Shown piece after piece: positions 3,861-38,531 of a stretch of DNA of 63,944 nt. The DNA lies in contig DATCDU010000021.1 in the NCBI GenBank assembly GCA_036510525.1, forward strand, positions 1 through 63,944, read 5' to 3'. The notes beneath the pieces were generated by a model. That model had not been told where the DNA came from and did no database searches. It saw only the letters and a program-made list of their open reading frames with translations. The position numbers were made by a program, and so were the translations under genes. This DNA comes from Minisyncoccota bacterium (GTDB lineage Bacteria; Patescibacteriota; Minisyncoccia; UBA6257; 2-01-FULL-56-20). Within the stretch, counting starts at the first letter, position 1; each line of letters begins with the position of its first letter.

Positions 3861-3971
3861 GCTTATTCTTTTTCCTCCCGGAAGGTGTCTCGGAGCCGCG
3901 AAGGCGGCGAGAGCCAAGGCGGCCGGTCAGCAGACCGGAACGCCGTCCTTTCGGGAGGAAAAAGAATAAGC
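3861..3971 (-). repeat. family-A GC-rich structured repeat (copy A3) closed by a perfect 20-bp inverted repeat
   Basis: GCTTATTCTTTTTCCTCCCG (3861-3880) is the exact reverse complement of 3952-3971. The interior matches the A1/A2 cores in reverse orientation (GGACGGCGTTC...GGCCGCCTTGGCTCTCGCCGCCTTCGCGGCTCCGAGACACC). Confidence 0.8.
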
Positions 3972-11838: not shown

Positions 11839-13950
<2,112 letters not shown>

Positions 13951-13956
<6 letters not shown>

Positions 13957-14073
13957 AACAAACACCGCATGCCTTTTCGGGGACGGGTCGCGTTCTACTG
14001 AACGCGCCCTAACGCTCGGCACCTTCGTGCCTCCGCGATTCCCCTCAAAGGTATGCGGTATTGTGTTTTAGCG
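13951..14073 (+). repeat. family-B GC-rich structured repeat (copy B1) inside an imperfect long stem overlapping the fusA stop
   Basis: Outer arms are CGCTAAAACAAACACCGCATGCC and GGTATGCGGTATTGTGTTTTAGCG. The core GGGGACGGGTCGCGTTCTACTGAACGCGCCCTAACGCTCGGCACCTTCGTGCCTCCGCGATTCCCC is nearly identical to 24151-24215. Confidence 0.8.
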
Positions 14074-14142
14074 ACCCGTTCCATCGTTATCTGCGGCATG
14101 TTGTTCTTAGGGCGAAATAATTAAGAAAAGATTAAATATTTT

Positions 14143-14173
14143 TTGACATTCTAGGGTGTCGGAGTAGGATAAT
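14143..14173 (+). promoter_or_regulatory. sigma70-like promoter (TTGACA ... TAGGATAAT) followed by a 9-bp inverted repeat
   Basis: AGGGTGTCG (14152-14160) pairs with CGACACCCT (14203-14211), a possible operator. A second extended -10, TGCTATAAT, lies at about 14245-14253. Confidence 0.45.
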
Positions 14174-14267
14174 GGGGATTCAGCGTCTGGGTGTATCAAA
14201 AAGGTCGACACCCTCGTATATCAATAGGTAGGGGAAACTGGATTTGCTATAATTAAATTAATCCCAA

Positions 14268-14777
14268 ATGGCTCAAAAAACCTCGGGAAAATCGAAGAGT
14301 CTGGTGATCGCGGAATACTTTATAAAGAAAAGTCAGGCCGAAGGCCGCGTGATCACGAATAAAAAATTGCAGAAGCTTCTGTATTATGCCCAGGCCTGGA
14401 GCTTGGTTTTTAATGATAAAAAAATCTTTGATGCTCCAATAGAAGCATGGGTGCACGGACCTGCAGTGCAGGAAGTGTATTCTGCGTACAAGGAATTTGG
14501 TTTTGGAAATATTACTACTCCTGTCAATGAACATGATCTTGTCACTTTGACATCGGAAGAGAAGAAGGTTTTGGAAGATGTGTGGAAAGCGTATGGAAAG
14601 TTTGACGCCGATTATTTGGAGATCCTCACGCACAACGAGGCTCCATGGCAGGAAGCGCGCGGCGGTATCGCTGCCGACGAGTCGTGCAGTAATGTGATCA
14701 GCACTGAATCCATGAAGGCCTACTATGAACGAAGACTTGAAGAAGTCAAAGAATCAGGAGAAATGGCTCAAGGCTAA
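14268..14777 (+). CDS. Panacea-domain (DUF4065/SocA-like) antitoxin candidate
   Basis: KLQKLLYYAQAWSLVFNDKKIFDAPIEAWVHGPAVQEVYSAYKEFG matches the remembered Panacea/DUF4065 signature. Confidence 0.75.
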   Translation: MAQKTSGKSKSLVIAEYFIKKSQAEGRVITNKKLQKLLYYAQAWSLVFNDKKIFDAPIEAWVHGPAVQEVYSAYKEFGFGNITTPVNEHDLVTLTSEEKKVLEDVWKAYGKFDADYLEILTHNEAPWQEARGGIAADESCSNVISTESMKAYYERRLEEVKESGEMAQG

Positions 14778-15249
14778 GGTCTTCGAGATCGTTGATCGTT
14801 TTAAGAGGACAAATAAAGGAAAAGAAATAGGACCGCCCTTGGAGAAGGCGGTCAAGGTTTTTGAGAAAACGCTGCAAGGCGAAACAATTCCGTCCGAGCT
14901 TACTCTTCCGCCCGCAGAAGATCCGGAGCAGGAATGCATCTCAATTAATCTACGTCCAAGCTGCCTCGATAATCCCGAGATACCGCAGATTCAGAAAGAG
15001 GCGGCAAAATCGCTCGTTCATAAATTCTCCGAAATGGGCGGTATGACAAAGCGCGCCGCAAACCAGACCGGCGTTATCCGAGACAAGGTTCCCAATCAGG
15101 GTGAATATGCATTCTTGTATGCGGGATTATCGCCCGACGTGGAGATCGTAGAGATCCAATATTCCGGGACCGGACGTATCTTCGGTTTTTTCACCCAGTC
15201 AACGTTCAATGTGGTTTGCATAAGGACGATACATATTGAAAACCATTAA
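14725..15249 (+). CDS. hypothetical protein, candidate toxin partner of the Panacea-domain protein
   Basis: Overlaps the upstream gene by 53 nt (true start uncertain). The C-terminus VEIVEIQYSGTGRIFGFFTQSTFNVVCIRTIHIENH is loosely RelE/HigB-like. No firm family assignment. Confidence 0.45.
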   Translation: MNEDLKKSKNQEKWLKAKVFEIVDRFKRTNKGKEIGPPLEKAVKVFEKTLQGETIPSELTLPPAEDPEQECISINLRPSCLDNPEIPQIQKEAAKSLVHKFSEMGGMTKRAANQTGVIRDKVPNQGEYAFLYAGLSPDVEIVEIQYSGTGRIFGFFTQSTFNVVCIRTIHIENH

Positions 15250-15265
15250 AATTTTCGAATTAACT

Positions 15266-15338
15266 GCCCTCGTGGTCCAATGGATAGGGCGCTTCCGTTC
15301 TACTGAGGTTGATGTGGGTTAGACTCCTGCCGAGGGCG
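15266..15338 (+). tRNA. aberrant tRNA-like gene, nominal tRNA-Arg (UCU)
   Basis: Good acceptor (GCCCTCG/CGAGGGC) and D arm. The anticodon arm CTTCC-GTTCTAC-TGAGG has a C:U closing mismatch and G32/C38. The T-loop TTAGACT has A at position 56. Confidence 0.5.
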
Positions 15339-15492
15339 CTCCGATGAAGTGGTAACCTTTTATCATTTGTACCGTTGTATTTGATAAGGCTTGGCAATCT
15401 CGGTTTGTGATTGCTCGGCCGACCGATTACTAGTTGAAAAGTGATACGGAGCAGGCATCGAGCTCGGGAATAAAATAAAAAAATTAATCAAA

Positions 15493-15750
15493 ATGGCCGA
15501 AGAAAAAAAGGAAAAGGAAGTTACGATAATAGTTAATGGCACGGCGCATGAGTGGCCTAAAGGCGAGATAACCTACGCGGAAGTGGTGACATTGGATGTA
15601 CCGGATTACCCACAGCACCCCGAAATCACCTATTCTGTTAAATATACAAAGGGACCTGGAGACAAGCATGAAGGCGTTCTTCCTCCGGGCGGGTCGGTAA
15701 AAGTTAAGGAAGGCATGAGCTTCAGTGTTTCAGAGACTGGTCAGTCATAA
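15493..15750 (+). CDS. multiubiquitin-domain (beta-grasp, ubiquitin-like) protein
   Basis: VTIIVNGTAHEWPKGEITYAEVV...ITYSVKYTKGPGDKHEGVLPPGGSVKVKEGMSFSVSETGQS matches the remembered Multiubiquitin family pattern. Confidence 0.7.
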   Translation: MAEEKKEKEVTIIVNGTAHEWPKGEITYAEVVTLDVPDYPQHPEITYSVKYTKGPGDKHEGVLPPGGSVKVKEGMSFSVSETGQS

Positions 15751-16615
15751 CGACGATATAAGGCGTTTGGTCGAAAAGGGATACGCTGTCGCTTTTGATA
15801 GTAATTATCTCATCATTCGGGACGTTCCTTACCTCGATAACGGGCGTCGCTTACAGACGGGTGCAATCGTGGCGAAGCTTGTCTTTGTGGATAAGGACAA
15901 CGTCATTCAAGATGACCATCAGATTTTCTTTGCGGGCTCAGTTCCGCACGGTCTAGATGGGAACCCTATTCCAAATCTTGGCGGTGGTGTAACCGTGCTC
16001 GCCCTAGGAGAAAACTGCGCAGATGTTGTGGTCCAGCGTTCGTTTTCCAATAAGCCGCGAACCGCCACCGGTCAATTCCCGGATTTTTACGAAAAGATAG
16101 AAAGTTACGTTGGAATCATTTCTGGTCCTGCGATGGAACTTCACAGCGCAAACCCATATACATTCAACGCCGCAAAAGACGTCGTCTCTAATTGGGAGCG
16201 ATTTGTTTCACGGCACGCGGAATGGTTACTTTCTCGGATCGCGAACTTTGCGCGTACGCCATCATCTCCTGTGTCTTTGTATGGACGCGCGGAGTATCTG
16301 TGCCATCGGGAGTCGGCGCGTTCGCTCGTTGAGTCACGGCTTGCGGTGTTTGCTCCGGTGCTTGAGGTTTCGTATGGCCGGGTTTCTATTCGTGCTCAGA
16401 AGACGTGCTGGGGGAGCTGCTCCCGGTCCGGGAATTTGAACTTTAATTACAAGATATTGTTTTTGCCCGCGCACTTGCAGGATTATGTGATCGTCCACGA
16501 GTTGGCGCACCTTCGTGAGTTGAGCCACTCTGCGCGGTTTTGGGCGGTGGTTGGTTCTGTTCTTCCCTCGTGGCGCTCGCTCCGGCGGGAGTTGCGGGGG
16601 AAGGGGATGCTGTAG
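15725..16615 (+). CDS. chimeric ORF: N-terminal E2-like domain of multiubiquitin-associated E1/ThiF proteins fused to the C-terminal two-thirds of a DUF45/YgjP-type (HExxH) metallopeptidase
   Basis: N-terminal part: DIRRLVEKGYAVAFDSNYLIIRDVPYLDNGRRLQTGAIV...HQIFFAGSVPHGLDGNPI...QRSFSNKP...YEKIESYVGIISGPA. C-terminal part: IRAQKTCWGSCSRSGNLNFNYKILFLPAHLQDYVIVHELAHLRELSHSARFW. No ThiF Rossmann domain lies in between. Base composition shifts visibly near 16190. Confidence 0.6.
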   Translation: MFQRLVSHNDDIRRLVEKGYAVAFDSNYLIIRDVPYLDNGRRLQTGAIVAKLVFVDKDNVIQDDHQIFFAGSVPHGLDGNPIPNLGGGVTVLALGENCADVVVQRSFSNKPRTATGQFPDFYEKIESYVGIISGPAMELHSANPYTFNAAKDVVSNWERFVSRHAEWLLSRIANFARTPSSPVSLYGRAEYLCHRESARSLVESRLAVFAPVLEVSYGRVSIRAQKTCWGSCSRSGNLNFNYKILFLPAHLQDYVIVHELAHLRELSHSARFWAVVGSVLPSWRSLRRELRGKGML

Positions 16616-16637
16616 GTTTTTTGGCAGTTATCGATAG

Positions 16638-16672
16638 TTTTTAATATATTTTTAATGCGGGTTTGGTATAAT
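16638..16672 (+). promoter_or_regulatory. AT-rich 20-mer (TTTTTAATATATTTTTAATG) plus TATAAT -10
   Basis: The 20-mer recurs at 19/20 identity at 17347-17366, and in related form at 20919-20938 and 24862-24883. TATAAT lies at 16667-16672. Confidence 0.5.
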
Positions 16673-16762
16673 GTGCTGAAACAAAAGGTCGAGATAAGGC
16701 GTATCATTAGCTGGGGAGGAATTGACGCAACACTCCCAAATTGTTATTCTAAAATCAATCTG

Positions 16763-17089
16763 ATGAACCTGATAAAAACCACAAAAGACCGCATCGTCAA
16801 AGCCGCACTGGGCAAGGGAACCGTCCCAAGCGGCCTTGTTGAGTTGAATAAATATTTTAGGCAATTTGGACAGATCAATTTCCAAGAGCATAAGGAGGAC
16901 GGAGTCATTATTTCCGTAAGTACGAATTTTAAATACGGAAGCATTATCGCTCACGGAAAGAATCGGAAGGAACTTGATGCGAATGTTGAGGACGCGATTT
17001 TGACCTCGTTCGAGGTTCCGTCGTCGTATAAGAAGGAGGCGAGCCTTATCAAAGTTGGTAAGAAGCAGGACGCGTATGTCCTCGCCTGA
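16763..17089 (+). CDS. hicB: HicB-like antitoxin
   Basis: EDGVIISVSTNFKYGSIIAHGKNRKELDANVEDAILTSF fits the HicB N-terminal fold pattern. Overlaps hicA by 14 nt. Start chosen downstream of the promoter. Confidence 0.55.
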   Translation: MNLIKTTKDRIVKAALGKGTVPSGLVELNKYFRQFGQINFQEHKEDGVIISVSTNFKYGSIIAHGKNRKELDANVEDAILTSFEVPSSYKKEASLIKVGKKQDAYVLA

Positions 17090-17321
17090 TGATCTCCCCG
17101 GAGAAATAAAGAGAAAGAAGTTTATCAAAGCGCTTGAGCGATGTGGTTTTGTCATCAATAAAGTTGGAGGCAACGGAAGTCATTACAAAGCAATTTGGCC
17201 TCGGAACAATAAGTCCGTCACCATCCAAAAGGAACTTCCTAAGCCCGTGTTGCGATATCTCTTGAAAGAGATCGAGACGTGTGCGGGGATAACGTGGGAT
17301 CAGATCAAGGCAAATTTATAG
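17076..17321 (+). CDS. hicA: HicA-family mRNA interferase toxin
   Basis: KKFIKALERCGFVINKVGGNGSHYKAIWP...VTIQKELPKPVLRYLLKEI (HicA G-S-H core). Confidence 0.72.
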   Translation: MSSPDDLPGEIKRKKFIKALERCGFVINKVGGNGSHYKAIWPRNNKSVTIQKELPKPVLRYLLKEIETCAGITWDQIKANL

Positions 17322-17393
17322 ATGCACATGCGTTCTTTCGGACCGATTTTTAATATTTTTTTAATGTTGCTATACTAAACCTACAACCGAATA

Positions 17394-17499
17394 CACATCA
17401 AGAGAGTGGAGATGCTAAGGGATTTGGCCCAAAGCTCCGCCCGCAACCGATCGACGATTCGACACGGTGCGAAGTCCAACCCTTCACGGGGAAGATGCT
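17394..17499 (+). promoter_or_regulatory. SAM-I (S-box) riboswitch aptamer
   Basis: CATCAAGAGAGTGGAG...GGGATTTGGCCCAAAGCTCC..CGCAACC....CGGTGCGAAGTCCAAC...GGGGAAGATG contains the S-box hallmarks AUCAAGAG, GGCCC, GCAACC, GGUGC.AA.UCC and the AGAUG P1 closure. TATACT -10 at 17371-17376. Lies upstream of metK. Confidence 0.8.
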
Positions 17500-17509
17500 T
17501 TTTATGCTC

Positions 17510-17535
17510 AACCGCCGTGTAGGCGGTTGTTTTTG
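17510..17535 (+). terminator. riboswitch expression-platform terminator
   Basis: AACCGCC-GTGTA-GGCGGTT followed by GTTTTT. Confidence 0.75.
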
Positions 17536-17600
17536 AACTTTGACAACTTCATGGTCGAAAAATAATCAAATTATTAATCAATTAATCAATCATTATTATC

Positions 17601-18587
17601 ATGCAAATAAAAGTTGCCCAAAAAACTGCCCAAAGAACCGCAGAAGCTGTTTCGCCGAAGCACCCGGATAAATTGTGCGATCTCATCGCCGATTCGCTCC
17701 TGGATGCGTATCTTGCGGGGGATCCTTTGAGCCGCGTGGCGGCGGAAGTGATGGGTGGACACGGGCACATCACCGTGTCCGGAGAAGTGACGAGCTCGGC
17801 GCAGGTGGATGTTGCTTCCGTTGTTCATTCGGTCGTCGGACCGGACGTTGCGGTGCACGCGAACATCGTCCGGCAGAGTCCGGAGATCGGGCGCGGAGTG
17901 GACACGGGCGGTGCGGGAGACCAGGGCATCATGATCGGCTACGCCACGCGCGAGACGCCGTCATTCCTGCCACGCGAATACGTGCTTGCGCGGGAATTGT
18001 GCCAGAAGCTCTATGCCGTATACCCGTACGATGGCAAGACCCAGGTGACGATAGATGGCGATCGCGTGACGTGCGTCGTCGCGAGCTTTCAAAATTCGCC
18101 GGCCGCGGCGCTTGAGGCGCTCATGCGGAAGAACATCGTGGCCGACGAATATCTGGTGAATCCCGCGGGCGACTGGTCGCTCGGCGGATTCGATGCGGAT
18201 TCGGGGATCTCCGGGCGCAAGATCGTGATCGACAACTACGGGCCGGAGATCGGCGTGGGCGGCGGATCGTTCTCGGGCAAAGACCTTACGAAGGTGGACC
18301 GGTCGGGCGCGTACATCGCGCGGCGCATCGCGGTGGATTACTTGAAGCGCTTCGACGCCGCGCGGGCGGTGCGCGTGAAGCTTGCATACGCCATCGGCAA
18401 GTCCGAGCCAGTGATGGCGGTCGCGGAGGTTGAGGAGGGCGGCGCTTCGCGCTCAATTCGCGCGGTTCCCATCGAGGGCTACGACCTTTCGCCCCGCGGC
18501 ATCGCCACATTGCTCAAGTTCGATTCCGTGCGCTGGGCGGACACCGCCGTGTGGGGACACTTCGGCAGGGAGTTCAGCTGGGGATAG
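17601..18587 (+). CDS. metK: S-adenosylmethionine synthetase (short form, 328 aa)
   Basis: KHPDKLCD, GAGDQGIMIGYA and GGGSFSGKDLTKVDRSGAY motifs. Confidence 0.9.
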   Translation: MQIKVAQKTAQRTAEAVSPKHPDKLCDLIADSLLDAYLAGDPLSRVAAEVMGGHGHITVSGEVTSSAQVDVASVVHSVVGPDVAVHANIVRQSPEIGRGVDTGGAGDQGIMIGYATRETPSFLPREYVLARELCQKLYAVYPYDGKTQVTIDGDRVTCVVASFQNSPAAALEALMRKNIVADEYLVNPAGDWSLGGFDADSGISGRKIVIDNYGPEIGVGGGSFSGKDLTKVDRSGAYIARRIAVDYLKRFDAARAVRVKLAYAIGKSEPVMAVAEVEEGGASRSIRAVPIEGYDLSPRGIATLLKFDSVRWADTAVWGHFGREFSWG

Positions 18588-22639: not shown

Positions 22640-23839
22640 ATGGCAGAAAAAGAAAAGTTCGACCGGTCCAAGCCGCACTTGAACGTCGGCACGATCGGAC
22701 ACGTTGATCACGGCAAGACCACGTTGACCGCAGCGATCACCCACGTGTTGTTCATGAAGGGGTGGATCAAGAAAGAAGAGAACGTTTCACAGATCGACAA
22801 CGCTCCGGAAGAGAAGGCGCGTGGTATCACCATCGCGTTGCATCACTCGGAATATAACTCGGAGAAGCGCCACTACGCGCACGTTGATGCTCCGGGCCAC
22901 GCCGACTACATCAAGAACATGATCACCGGCGCCGCCCAGATGGACGGTGCGGTGCTCGTCGTTGCCGCGACGGACGGCCCGATGCCGCAGACCCGCGAGC
23001 ATATTTTGCTTGCCCGTCAGGTAGGTGTTCCCTCTATTATTGTCTTCCTCAACAAGGTTGACATGGTAGATGATCCGGAATTGATCGACCTCGTGGAGTC
23101 CGAAGTTCGTGAGCTCCTCACGAAGAACGGCTTCCCGGGCGACACCGCTCCGGTGATCCGCGGTTCGGCGCTCAAGGCGTTGAACTCCACCTCGGCCGAT
23201 TCGCCGGAGGCAAAGCCGATCTTGGATCTCGTCAAAGCGATGGATGACTTCTTTCCGGATCCGGTCCGGGAACTCGACAAGCCGTTCCTTATGCCGGTTG
23301 AAGACATCTTCTCGATCGAAGGTCGCGGTACGGTCGTCACGGGACGCATCGAGCGCGGTATGGTCAAGGTGAACGAGGAAATCGAGGTCGTCGGCCTTAA
23401 GCCGACCCAGAAGACCGTCGTTACCGGTATCGAAATGTTCAACAAGAGCTTGGATCAGGGCCAGGCAGGCGACAACGCTGGTTTGCTCCTCCGCGGCTTG
23501 AAGAAGGAAGATGTAGAGCGCGGGCAGGTGCTCGCGAAGCCGGGCAGTGTGACCCCGCACTCGGAGTTCGAGGGCGAGATCTACGTGCTCTCGAAAGAAG
23601 AGGGCGGCCGCCACTCTCCGTTCTTCAAGGGCTACAAGCCCCAGTTCTACATCCGCACCACTGACGTGACGGGCGAGGTCACCCTTCCGGAAGGAATGGA
23701 AATGGTCATGCCGGGCGATACCGTCAAGATCACGGTCAAGCTCATCACCCCGGTCGCGTTGGAAGACAAGATGCGTTTCGCCATCCGCGAAGGCGGCAAG
23801 ACCGTCGGCGCCGGAGTCGTGACGAAGATCATCAAGTAG
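22640..23839 (+). CDS. tuf: elongation factor Tu
   Basis: [24 protein letters not shown]. 399 aa. Confidence 0.97.
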
Positions 23840-24106: not shown

Positions 24107-24150
24107 CATTGAATTCATAAGGGTAAAACCAAAATAACAGCTACTCCTTC

Positions 24151-24215
24151 GGGACGGGTCGCGTTCTACTGAACGCGCCCTAACGCTCGGCACCTACGTG
24201 CCTCCGCGAGTCCCC
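24151..24215 (+). repeat. family-B GC-rich structured repeat (copy B2)
   Basis: GGGACGGGTCGCGTTCTACTGAACGCGCCCTAACGCTCGGCACCTACGTGCCTCCGCGAGTCCCC. Differs from B1 only in a hairpin loop and in the closing stem. Confidence 0.8.
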
Positions 24216-24293
24216 TCGAGGGCGATTTTTGTTTGCTTACGTTTAAACATTCGTCACGGCGCCGAGCGCCTCCTGAAGTGTTATAGTAAAACC

Positions 24294-38394: not shown

Positions 38395-38480
38395 GACGGC
38401 GTTCTCCCACGGGACTCCTAAGAGTCGCGCCTACTGGCTGGCCGCCTTGGCTCTCGCCGCCTTCGCGGCTCCGAGACACC
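38395..38480 (+). repeat. family-A GC-rich structured repeat (copy A2), 25 nt after the secY stop
   Basis: GACGGCGTTCTCCCACGGGACTCCTAAGAGTCGCGCCTACTGGCTGGCCGCCTTGGCTCTCGCCGCCTTCGCGGCTCCGAGACACC. Confidence 0.85.
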
Positions 38481-38531
38481 TTTCAAGAAGAGGATATTTT
38501 ATTCGATACTAGTGATGAAAAAATAGAGATA

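What the first reader, a model, noticed from the sequence alone, without database searches (positions are those of the whole stretch)
15493..16615. Orphan multiubiquitin gene followed by an E2-like::DUF45-metallopeptidase chimera, with no E1 or JAB gene present
The gene at 15493-15750 encodes an 85-aa beta-grasp protein with the multiubiquitin signature. In described prokaryotic ubiquitin-like operons this gene is followed by a large protein (N-terminal E2-like domain plus ThiF/E1 adenylation domain) and then a JAB/MPN peptidase.

Here the next ORF overlaps the multiubiquitin gene by 26 nt and starts with exactly that N-terminal domain (DIRRLVEKGYAVAFDSNYLIIRDVPYLDN...IFFAGSVPHGLDG...QRSFSNKP...YVGIISGPA). 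After about 155 aa it continues in frame into the C-terminal ~140 aa of a DUF45/YgjP-type zinc metallopeptidase (WGSCS...DYVIVHELAHLRELSHSARFW). The E1 domain and the JAB gene are absent, and so is the N-terminal beta-strand region of DUF45.

Base composition shifts from AT-richer to genome-like near 16190. There are two readings:
- A deletion scar, in which a mobile Ubl-conjugation (antiphage-type) operon was truncated against a resident DUF45 gene.
- A functional minimal module, in which a WLM/SprT-like metallopeptidase replaces the JAB peptidase next to a Ubl.

I am not aware of the second arrangement having been described. Either way, this is the most unusual coding architecture in the window.
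Basis: partly seen in the sequence, partly recalled or inferred. Interest (0 to 1): 0.75.

Follow-up and report, generated by a model that had tools for sequence, protein, structure and literature searches.

The report
Truncated Bub operon fused to ygjP
A horizontally acquired bacterial ubiquitin-like (Type II Bub) defence operon in a Patescibacteria genome lost its E1 domain and protease gene in a deletion that welded the leftover E2-like piece in frame onto the host's own YgjP-type metallopeptidase gene, so this is a one-off scar and not a new kind of system.

Summary
15493-15750 encodes an 85-aa Multiubiquitin protein. 15725-16615 encodes a 296-aa hybrid: DUF6791 (E2-like) at residues 1-156 and the C-terminal 139 aa of a YgjP/DUF45 zincin.

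The DUF6791 half belongs to Type II Bub (6E.2) operons, bubA-bubBD-bubE. Their third gene is BubE, not JAB. Twenty-seven of 29 independent loci carry all three parts. Here the E1 domain and bubE are missing.

The YgjP half is a resident gene. Three related genomes have an intact 187-aa ygjP at the same place, between fusA and tuf, with variable restriction-modification and toxin-antitoxin islands around it. DNA homology to them begins exactly at 16194. The breakpoint is 16193|16194, inside a hybrid Trp codon, with no microhomology.

The Bub remnant lies directly downstream of tRNA-Arg(TCT), which also borders a variable island in one relative.

The fusion occurs only in this one population. 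It was absent from 5.8 billion proteins, 185,579 species genomes and JGI metagenomes. An independent Logan assembly carries the same junction, so a mis-assembly is unlikely.

Neither half shows decay, and the minimal zincin core is retained. The deletion is therefore recent, or the peptidase core is still in use.

Verdict: a deletion scar in a defence island. Interest is low.

The parts
15266..15339 (+). tRNA-Arg(TCT), the likely integration site or boundary of the variable island that holds the Bub remnant
   Evidence: ARAGORN; Rfam tRNA, 40.2 bits. An orthologous tRNA-Arg(TCT) in relative L086 (4129-4202) lies directly after fusA. Similarity between the two genomes ends at the tRNA 3' end, and a different island (methyltransferases) follows there. 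[quoted passage not shown]
15493..15750 (+). bubA: an intact 85-aa single beta-grasp Ubl (Multiubiquitin family)
   Evidence: Pfam PF14452, E 9e-18. 79% identical over 76 aa to the BubA of the canonical operon L002, with the same C-terminus ...TGQS and the same 26-nt overlap with the next gene.
15725..16193 (+). bubB': the 5' 469 nt (codons 1-156) of a bubBD E2-E1 fusion gene, carrying the E2-like DUF6791 domain only
   Evidence: Pfam PF20590, E 3e-37, profile 1-137 of 149. NCBIfam PRK06153.1-2, positions 1-156 of 400. 70-78% identical to the N-termini of 397-aa DUF6791+ThiF proteins. 67 of the 68 columns that are at least 95% conserved among 109 full-length BubBD are kept, including H65, R105, F107, S108 and K110. 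The conserved F-K-x-x-D-T-L-T-S-R-A-E-I segment that follows, and the whole ThiF domain, are gone.
16193..16195 (+). Deletion junction: a hybrid TGG (Trp157) codon, with T from bubBD and GG from ygjP
   Evidence: Codon-by-codon comparison with L004 and L007 (Bub) and L001 (ygjP). Window: TCT AAT T|GG GAG CGA. Bub: TCC GAT TCT GTA. ygjP: GAG GGG GAG CGA. There is no microhomology and the join is in frame. The blastn boundaries are 16185 and 16194.
16194..16615 (+). 'ygjP: the 3' 420 nt (139 codons plus stop) of the resident YgjP-like/DUF45 zinc metallopeptidase gene. Orthologous DNA continues to 16656.
   Evidence: 89% aa and 87% nt identity to residues 49-187 of P0003 in relative L001. All invariant family columns are kept (WGSCS, NLNFNYK, HELxH...H), with one exception, E214 at a near-invariant Gly. 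dN/dS against L001 is 0.17. The 47 N-terminal codons are missing; they include the near-invariant RARRMRLxV..DG..V.T.P motif, which forms four beta-strands in the AF2 model of P0003.
15725..16615 (+). The chimeric 296-aa ORF as a whole
   Evidence: AF2 model: mean pLDDT 78; C-terminal zincin core 88-98; E2-like half 62-91; junction region 147-190 low (below 50 at 147-154, 54-68 up to 190).
14268..15249 (+). Context: a SocA/Panacea antitoxin-like gene (14268-14777) with an overlapping 174-aa partner (14725-15249), lying between fusA and the tRNA
   Evidence: Pfam PF13274, E 5.6e-22; NCBIfam SocA_antitoxin. GC 0.38-0.51 against 0.54-0.62 in fusA.
16655..17321 (+). Context: a 144-aa ORF plus a HicA-toxin gene immediately downstream of 'ygjP. 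This is another variable module; relatives carry different genes here.
   Evidence: Pfam HicA_toxin, E 1.4e-07. Homology to L001 ends at 16656. In the relatives, ygjP is followed by PemK (L001), BFN_dom (L086) or N_methyl (L088) genes.
11839..13956 (+). Context: fusA (EF-G), the left conserved anchor of the locus. tuf at 22640-23839 is the right anchor.
   Evidence: EF-G is 95-98% and EF-Tu 93-98% identical to the relatives L001, L086, L088 and L028.

Best explanation

Proposed history:
1. The operon arrived on a mobile element in the hypervariable defence/toxin-antitoxin island downstream of tRNA-Arg(TCT). That island lies between fusA and the resident ygjP-like gene of a Patescibacteria (Saccharibacteria-like) genome.
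2. A single illegitimate, microhomology-free deletion of at least about 1.25 kb followed.
3. It removed bubBD from codon 157 onward (the whole E1 adenylation domain), bubE, everything up to ygjP, and the first 47 codons of ygjP.
4. It joined the two genes in frame at 16193|16194.

Shown directly:
- the identities of both halves;
- the exact breakpoint;
- synteny and intactness of ygjP in relatives;
- the constancy of E1 and BubE in canonical operons;
- the uniqueness of the fusion.

Inferred:
- The order of events (insertion, then deletion).
- Ubl conjugation is dead. BubA cannot be adenylated without the E1 domain, and the published work shows that E1 residues are required for conjugate formation.
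- The event is recent, because neither half has accumulated damaging changes.

The retained YgjP part still contains the complete minimal zincin core. The hybrid may therefore still deliver some YgjP-type hydrolase activity, translated from the bubBD start codon. That is the only plausible residual function.
For: Domain identities.

Canonical operon:
- Multi_ubiq (83 aa, same 26-nt overlap) - DUF6791+ThiF (397 aa) - BubE PF20137 in L002-L005.
- 27 of 29 independent Bub loci have BubA, E1 and BubE. One of the other two lacks only BubA, because its contig starts at bubBD. The other, L034, lacks an E1 hit.
- Literature: Type II Bub is BubA, the BubBD E2-E1 fusion and BubE. It typically has no JAB. 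The E1 residues R219 and Y342 and the E2 residue S106 are required. Bub operons sit in mobile elements at tRNA genes (bioRxiv 10.1101/2024.11.21.623953).

Resident ygjP:
- L001, L086 and L088 all show rpsL-rpsG-fusA-[variable RM/TA genes]-ygjP-[variable]-tuf-rpsJ. ygjP is 187 aa in L001 and L088; the 163-aa call in L086 is in a MAG whose fusA is also called in two pieces.
- EF-Tu is 93-98% identical to these relatives.
- The family is a very uniform stand-alone protein of about 187-189 aa in Patescibacteria.

Breakpoint: window 16194-16656 equals L001 10143-10598 at 87%. Bub-type similarity is 15506-16185. The hybrid codon has no microhomology.

tRNA-Arg(TCT) boundary.

Uniqueness:
- Only the window's own cluster has PF20590+PF01863 among the 120 best hits listed in each of two searches of 5.8 billion proteins.
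- No locus in 185,579 species genomes matches both halves. Matches split cleanly into residues 1-156 (diverse phyla) and 158-296 (Patescibacteria).
- The degenerate junction pattern is absent from JGI metagenomes.
- None of 29 Bub loci has a YgjP gene within +/-8 kb, and none of 59 YgjP loci has Bub.

Missing parts: no E1, BubE or ygjP 5' end in the window.

Composition step.
Against: - There is no decay in either half. Both ORFs are open. 67 of 68 highly conserved BubB columns and all invariant YgjP columns are retained.
- The window's nonsynonymous branch for the ygjP fragment (about 0.02) is no longer than that of the intact L001 copy (about 0.04). dN/dS is 0.17.
- The join is in frame, and it keeps the operon's native GTG start and the overlap with bubA.
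- The retained YgjP part covers the whole region that superposes on autonomous 105-aa minigluzincins (4JIU: TM 0.79 normalised to the target, rmsd 1.5-1.6 A, 98 columns). AF2 models it with pLDDT 88-98.
- No relative carrying the pre-deletion state (an intact Bub operon next to ygjP) was found. The closest BubBD is only 78% identical.

All of this fits a recent deletion, but it does not prove loss of function.
Confidence: 0.85

Rival explanations
1. Rescue by start capture. The event is still a deletion scar, but the in-frame variant persists because it keeps the catalytic core of the resident YgjP hydrolase expressed. The deletion removed ygjP's own start and upstream region, so the bubBD GTG start and the bubA-coupled translation now drive it. 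The E2-like part and BubA are passengers. This overlaps with the best explanation and differs only on whether the hybrid is under selection.
For: - ygjP is conserved at this locus in all three close relatives and is a uniform family across Patescibacteria.
- No second copy is present in the window.
- The fragment keeps every invariant catalytic residue and shows no rate acceleration.
- The minimal zincin core is complete, and it is predicted with high confidence in the chimera.
- The join is in frame.
Against: - An in-frame join has a 1-in-3 prior by chance.
- The deleted 47 residues hold some of the most conserved positions of the family: R21, A22, R23, R24, R26, L27, V29, D32, G33, T38 and P40 of P0003. 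They make up four of the seven beta-strands.
- Lack of decay is equally expected for a very recent event.
- The rest of the genome was not available, so a second ygjP cannot be excluded.
Confidence: 0.2
2. A functional minimal Ubl module. BubA plus an E2-like::zincin protein work together, with the YgjP/WLM-like metallopeptidase replacing BubE or JAB as a Ubl-directed peptidase. The E2-like domain would serve as a BubA-binding module.
For: - BubA is intact and its gene overlaps the hybrid's by the family's usual 26 nt.
- The E2-like domain keeps its invariant Ser, Lys and His.
- The zincin core is intact.
- The YgjP model has weak structural similarity to Wss1/WLM peptidases, which act with SUMO and ubiquitin in eukaryotes (the Wss1 biology is from my own knowledge).
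Against: - No E1 is present in the window, so there is no route to a charged Ubl or to any conjugates to cleave.
- The published system needs E1 residues for any conjugate to form.
- The architecture is found in one clonal population only.
- The break cuts the DUF6791 profile 12 positions short and removes the strongly conserved segment after it.
- It also removes the conserved N-terminus of YgjP.
- The junction region is modelled with low confidence.
- Even intact Bub operons have no demonstrated phenotype yet.
Confidence: 0.06
3. Assembly chimera: a mis-join of a Bub-carrying contig and the ygjP locus.
For: - The composition step falls exactly at the junction.
- One assembly of the same population (ERZ27294387) ends at 15756, about 440 nt before the junction.
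- No read data could be inspected.
Against: - The identical junction appears in a MEGAHIT-style k141 contig (ERZ27294337) and in an independently built Logan contig from run SRR3985524, which spans 14022-17315 at 100% identity. The same 296-aa protein is also recorded from a 19.5-kb JGI contig.
- The two parental sequences share no repeat or microhomology at the join. A de Bruijn-graph assembler therefore has no shared k-mer to cross, so junction k-mers must exist in reads (inference).
- No intact parental copy close to either half exists in the databases that include these samples. The best BubBD is 78% identical and the best YgjP 89%, the latter from another MAG.
- The join preserves the reading frame.
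Confidence: 0.03

Closest known systems
[quoted passage not shown]
   Same: - BubA of the Multiubiquitin family.
- The E2-like DUF6791 N-terminus of BubBD, with its invariant Ser, Lys and His.
- The same GTG start and 26-nt gene overlap.
- Location next to a tRNA gene in a defence/TA island.
   Different: - The E1 (ThiF) domain of BubBD is absent.
- The bubE gene is absent.
- The HTH plus M78-peptidase (CapH/CapP-like) regulators seen upstream in homologous loci are absent.
- The E2-like fragment is fused to an unrelated resident gene.
- The host is a Patescibacteria genome, whereas the closest homologues are in other phyla (Bacteroidetes, Acidobacteriota, Gammaproteobacteria and others).
YgjP-like / DUF45 zinc metallopeptidases (Pfam PF01863; annotated as M48 or SprT family), in the stand-alone Patescibacteria form of about 187-189 aa
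   Same: - The C-terminal 139 residues are orthologous (89% identity to P0003).
- They carry the WGSCS strand, the NLNFNYK motif, the HExxH helix and the downstream His.
- The genomic position between fusA and tuf is the same as in relatives.
   Different: - It lacks the 47 N-terminal residues (four beta-strands and the RARRMRL...DG...P motif).
- It lacks its own start codon and upstream region.
- It is preceded by 156 foreign residues.
Minigluzincins (proabylysin 4JIU, projannalysin 4JIX, selecase 4QHF) and Wss1/WLM peptidases
   Same: The predicted YgjP core superposes on these zincin scaffolds of about 105 aa: 4JIU with TM 0.79 (normalised to the target) and rmsd 1.5 A over 98 columns. Similarity to Wss1 is weaker (TM 0.5-0.6). 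This shows that the part kept in the chimera corresponds to an autonomously folding catalytic unit.
   Different: Sequence identity is only 16-28%. These are archaeal or eukaryotic proteins with other contexts. No Ubl-related role is known for YgjP-like proteins.
Other bacterial Ubl-conjugation defence systems with JAB peptidases (Type I Bub, Bil, Type II CBASS Cap2/Cap3)
   Same: The general logic is shared: a Ubl, E2- and E1-like enzymes, and a deconjugating peptidase, all in defence islands.
   Different: No JAB/MPN gene is expected in this subfamily or present here.

Membership tests
Type II Bub operon | BubA: a Ubl with a beta-grasp domain (Multiubiquitin PF14452) encoded immediately upstream of bubBD | tested here: met
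   PF14452, E 9e-18. 79% identity to the BubA of L002, with the same overlap.
Type II Bub operon | [quoted passage not shown] | tested here: met
   PF20590, E 3e-37. S108 and H65 are invariant and K110 is at least 95% conserved among 109 BubBD proteins, and all three are present in the window protein. Equivalence of S108 to S106 of E. coli ZDHYS365 BubBD is inferred, not checked. The last 12 profile positions are missing.
Type II Bub operon | An E1 adenylation domain (ThiF PF00899) fused C-terminally to the E2-like domain | tested here: not met
   No ThiF hit in the 296-aa protein. tblastn with an E1 domain finds nothing in the window (best E 1.8). The NCBIfam match stops at position 156 of 400.
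Type II Bub operon | A BubE (DUF6527/PF20137) serine protease gene downstream | tested here: not met
   The next ORFs are a 144-aa unknown and HicA. tblastn with BubE finds nothing in the window (best E 2.5). BubE was detected in all 29 independent Bub loci fetched.
Type II Bub operon | Ubl conjugation activity through oxyester intermediates | not testable with these tools
   This needs biochemistry. It is expected to be absent without E1 (inference).
YgjP-like / DUF45 metallopeptidase (PF01863) | An HExxH zinc site, the downstream His, and the WGSC-containing strand | tested here: met
   H258, E259, H262, H268 and W229-S233 all lie in columns that are invariant in the 20-sequence alignment A1. 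Most remain invariant or at least 90% conserved in the 111-sequence alignment A4.
YgjP-like / DUF45 metallopeptidase (PF01863) | The full-length domain, including the conserved N-terminal beta-strand region (RARRMRLxV..DG..V.T.P) | tested here: not met
   The Pfam match covers profile 108-205 of 207 only. Homology to P0003 starts at its residue 49. The deleted part forms strands 2-7, 10-19, 26-29 and 35-40 in the AF2 model (pLDDT 86-95).
   None of the eight ORFs scanned between 14268 and 19305 gives a JAB hit. The homologous complete operons carry BubE instead of JAB, as published.
WLM/SprT-type Ubl-linked metallopeptidases | Structural and sequence membership in the WLM/SprT family, plus a Ubl-binding element | tested here: inconclusive
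   Foldseek against Wss1: E 0.03-0.18, TM 0.49-0.58 normalised to the target. One distant YgjP relative carries a precomputed SprT-like PF10263 hit. There is no evidence for Ubl binding.

The most novel reading that the evidence does not exclude
The hybrid could be a working neo-enzyme. Its E2-like domain would still bind BubA non-covalently and bring a minimal YgjP-type zincin to BubA or BubA-tagged substrates, or it could act as a decoy against Bub-type conjugation. That would be a Ubl-directed metallopeptidase born by a single deletion in a reduced CPR genome.
Probability: 0.06. Interest if true: 0.55.

Novelty: new member of a known kind. Interest (0 to 1): 0.2.

Why it matters
It matters little on its own. 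It is a cleanly resolved example of how defence islands erode: a Bub operon cut down to its Ubl and E2-like stub, with a base-pair-exact breakpoint and an identified ancestral state for the resident gene.

Three minor points of value:
1. It shows Type II Bub genes reaching a Patescibacteria/CPR genome by horizontal transfer, next to tRNA-Arg(TCT).
2. It identifies the fusA-tRNA-Arg-ygjP-tuf interval as a recombination hotspot in this clade, with ygjP as a fixed anchor.
3. It warns annotators that 'DUF6791 + YgjP' is not a domain architecture to propagate.

If the hybrid proved active, it would show that the N-terminal beta-strand region of YgjP is dispensable for activity, or that a new Ubl-linked peptidase can arise in one step.

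Tried and rejected
- PADLOC gave no hit for any of the six island proteins. The 2023 library predates Bub, so this is uninformative.
- A literature search for 'DUF6791' found nothing. One search failed on a term that was too short.
- An exact look-up of the hybrid protein (P0001, which is recorded with a Val start) found no contig. Looking up BubA instead retrieved the contigs.
- A degenerate junction pattern searched in JGI metagenome contigs gave 0 matches.
- A PDB sequence search with the E2-like half gave no hit even at E 10. The Foldseek hits of the chimera to E2/UEV folds (Atg10, Rad6, Ube2W, TSG101) are all non-significant (E 0.1-1). The E2 assignment therefore rests on Pfam family membership and the published BubB structure, not on my own structural match.
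- The first mixed alignment for the chimera (A5) misplaced the first 50 residues or so of the YgjP rows onto the Bub half. It was replaced by A6 after local MAFFT tests.
- No direct repeat of the tRNA 3' end and no integrase gene was found in 13900-17800. The island's outer att site is not identifiable and was presumably lost.
- The promoter scan found no sigma-70-like site between the tRNA and bubA. This is not informative for this phylum.
- I considered that BLAST alignments extending to 65-85% of the query might mean E1 sequence persists after residue 156. Inspection shows these are low-identity extensions with no real similarity.
- I considered pseudogene decay tests. No excess of derived or damaging substitutions was found in either half, so decay cannot be used as an argument for the scar.
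Full report
**1. Observation**

The ORFs are exactly as described. One is 15493-15750 (+, 85 aa). The other is 15725-16615 (+, GTG start, 296 aa), and they overlap by 26 nt.

- Pfam assigns the first to Multiubiquitin (PF14452, E 9e-18).
- Pfam splits the second into DUF6791 (PF20590, residues 10-151, E 3e-37, profile 1-137 of 149) and the C-terminal half of YgjP-like (PF01863, residues 194-291, E 2e-36, profile 108-205 of 207).
- NCBIfam PRK06153.1-2 matches residues 1-154 to positions 1-156 of a 400-position model.
- GC steps from about 0.49 to about 0.56 at 16200.

**2. What the Bub half is**

The best homologues of residues 1-156 are 397-aa DUF6791+ThiF proteins, 70-78% identical. In their loci the gene order is Multi_ubiq (83 aa, with the same 26-nt overlap), then DUF6791+ThiF, then BubE (PF20137). 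An HTH plus M78-peptidase pair often lies upstream, sometimes with integrase genes nearby.

This is the Type II Bub ('6E.2') operon described in bioRxiv 10.1101/2024.11.21.623953. According to that paper:
- BubA is the Ubl, BubBD is an E2-E1 fusion that works through oxyester intermediates, and BubE is a serine protease.
- Type II operons typically have no JAB.
- E1 residues are needed for any conjugate to form.
- The operons sit in mobile elements at tRNA genes.

Among 29 independent Bub loci that I fetched, 27 carry BubA, E1 and BubE. One lacks only BubA, because its contig starts at bubBD. One (L034) looks degraded. The window is the only case lacking both E1 and BubE. Neither is found anywhere in the 64-kb window.

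**3. What the YgjP half is**

Residues 158-296 are 89% identical to residues 49-187 of P0003, a 187-aa stand-alone YgjP-like protein of a related MAG. A search with P0003 shows a very uniform family of 187-189 aa proteins in Patescibacteria. Among the 120 best hits listed, the window's own protein is the only one with the DUF6791+YgjP architecture.

In three related genomes (EF-Tu 93-98% identical) the locus reads rpsL-rpsG-fusA-[variable restriction-modification and toxin-antitoxin genes]-ygjP-[variable genes]-tuf-rpsJ. ygjP is therefore a resident, syntenic anchor gene flanked by hypervariable islands.

Synonymous divergence of the fragment from L001 (dS 0.35) is in the range of fusA and tuf (0.35-0.55), as expected for vertical orthology.

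**4. The junction**

- Window-to-L001 DNA homology starts at 16194 and runs to 16656, which is 41 nt past the stop codon.
- Bub-type DNA similarity runs from 15506 to 16185.
- Codon alignment gives: window TCT AAT T|GG GAG CGA; Bub TCC GAT TCT GTA; ygjP GAG GGG GAG CGA.
- The break is at 16193|16194, inside a hybrid Trp codon. It has no microhomology and the join is in frame.

Lost on the Bub side:
- the last 12 positions of the DUF6791 profile;
- the strongly conserved F-K-x-x-D-T-L-T-S-R-A-E-I segment;
- the whole E1 domain and bubE.

Lost on the ygjP side: 47 codons that include near-invariant residues (R21, A22, R23, R24, R26, L27, V29, D32, G33, T38, P40 of P0003). These form four beta-strands in a confident AF2 model of P0003 (pLDDT 91.7).

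**5. Island context**

tRNA-Arg(TCT) lies at 15266-15339, 153 nt upstream of bubA. Its orthologue in L086 follows fusA directly. Similarity between the two genomes stops at the tRNA 3' end, where different islands begin.

In the window:
- a SocA/Panacea pair lies between fusA and the tRNA;
- a HicA module follows 'ygjP;
- the whole 14.0-17.6 kb stretch is GC-poor relative to the flanking core genes.

**6. Is it real, and is it unique?**

The identical junction is present in an ENA k141 contig (the window itself) and in an independently assembled Logan contig from SRR3985524, which spans 14022-17315 at 100% identity. The same protein is also recorded from a 19.5-kb JGI contig.

The parental sequences share no repeat at the join. 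No near-identical intact parent exists in the databases. An assembly chimera is therefore unlikely, although reads were not inspected.

Outside this clonal population the fusion was not found:
- not among the 120 best hits listed in either search of 5.8 billion clustered proteins;
- not in 185,579 species genomes, where matches split cleanly into residues 1-156 (many phyla) and 158-296 (Patescibacteria);
- not in JGI metagenome contigs;
- not as a neighbourhood in any of the 88 independent loci examined.

**7. Function**

Ubl conjugation cannot proceed without E1, so the Bub pathway is dead here. This is inferred.

Neither half shows decay:
- 67 of 68 highly conserved BubB columns are kept.
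- All invariant YgjP columns are kept, apart from E214 at a near-invariant Gly.
- dN/dS is 0.17, and the nonsynonymous branch is no longer than that of the intact L001 copy.

The P0003 model matches the 105-aa minigluzincin proabylysin (4JIU), with TM 0.79 normalised to the target and rmsd 1.5 A over 98 columns. The chimera model gives the same match. This means the retained 139 residues contain the complete minimal zincin core.

In the chimera model that core has pLDDT 88-98. The E2-like half has 62-91. The junction region is poorly defined, below 50 at residues 147-154 and 54-68 up to about residue 190.

The deletion is therefore recent, or the peptidase core is still used and is now translated from the bubBD start. 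The in-frame join is weak evidence for the latter, since its chance prior is 1 in 3.

**8. Verdict**

The reference operon needs correcting to Type II Bub, with BubE rather than JAB. The 'functional minimal module' reading has no comparative support.

This is a degraded member of a known system in a defence island. Interest is low.

Noticed in passing
window 3882-3952 (-), 13976-14046 (+), 24148-24217 (+), 38429-38488 (+); also L001 2004-2074 and 15682-15772: A repeated element of about 70 nt, found downstream of fusA, tuf and other genes. One copy is 100% identical between the window and the relative L001, although coding genes differ by about 10%. It folds into two hairpins, and 6 of 17 pairs show compensatory changes between two subfamilies. 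It has no Rfam match. It could be a small structured RNA or a terminator-like repeat specific to this clade.
   Followed up: partly
window 25648-25720 (+): ARAGORN reports a tRNA of undetermined identity with a 2-nt 'anticodon (gc)'. Rfam scores it as a tRNA at 54.8 bits. The anticodon loop region reads ...CACTTTTGCCAAAGCG..., so it may be a tRNA-Gly(GCC) with an unusual loop.
   Followed up: no
window 17601-18587 (+): The S-adenosylmethionine synthetase gene encodes only 328 aa, with partial matches to the N-terminal (4-71 of 99) and central (3-96 of 120) Pfam domains. It lies after ygjP here but before ygjP in the relative L028, so the locus has been rearranged.
   Followed up: no
window 14268-15249 (+) and 16655-17321 (+): Two probable toxin-antitoxin modules flank the Bub remnant. 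The first is a SocA/Panacea-domain protein with an overlapping 174-aa partner that has a weak MAG6450-family hit. The second is a 144-aa ORF followed by a HicA toxin.
   Followed up: partly
L034 2242-2910 (Alphaproteobacteria MAG JAGLMC010000080.1): A 223-aa BubBD-like ORF without a detectable E1 domain, although BubA and BubE are present. This looks like another, independent case of a degraded Type II Bub operon.
   Followed up: no
L090 (ENA ERZ27294387 k141_251575), end of contig = window 15756: A second assembly of the same population breaks 31 nt into the hybrid gene, about 440 nt before the junction. This could reflect low coverage or a polymorphism at this locus in that sample.
   Followed up: no
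L001 1-1919 and L086 1872-3975: fusA is called as two pieces in both related MAGs, suggesting frameshift errors in those assemblies. The 163-aa ygjP call in L086 may therefore be a start-site or indel artefact and not a truly shorter gene.
   Followed up: no
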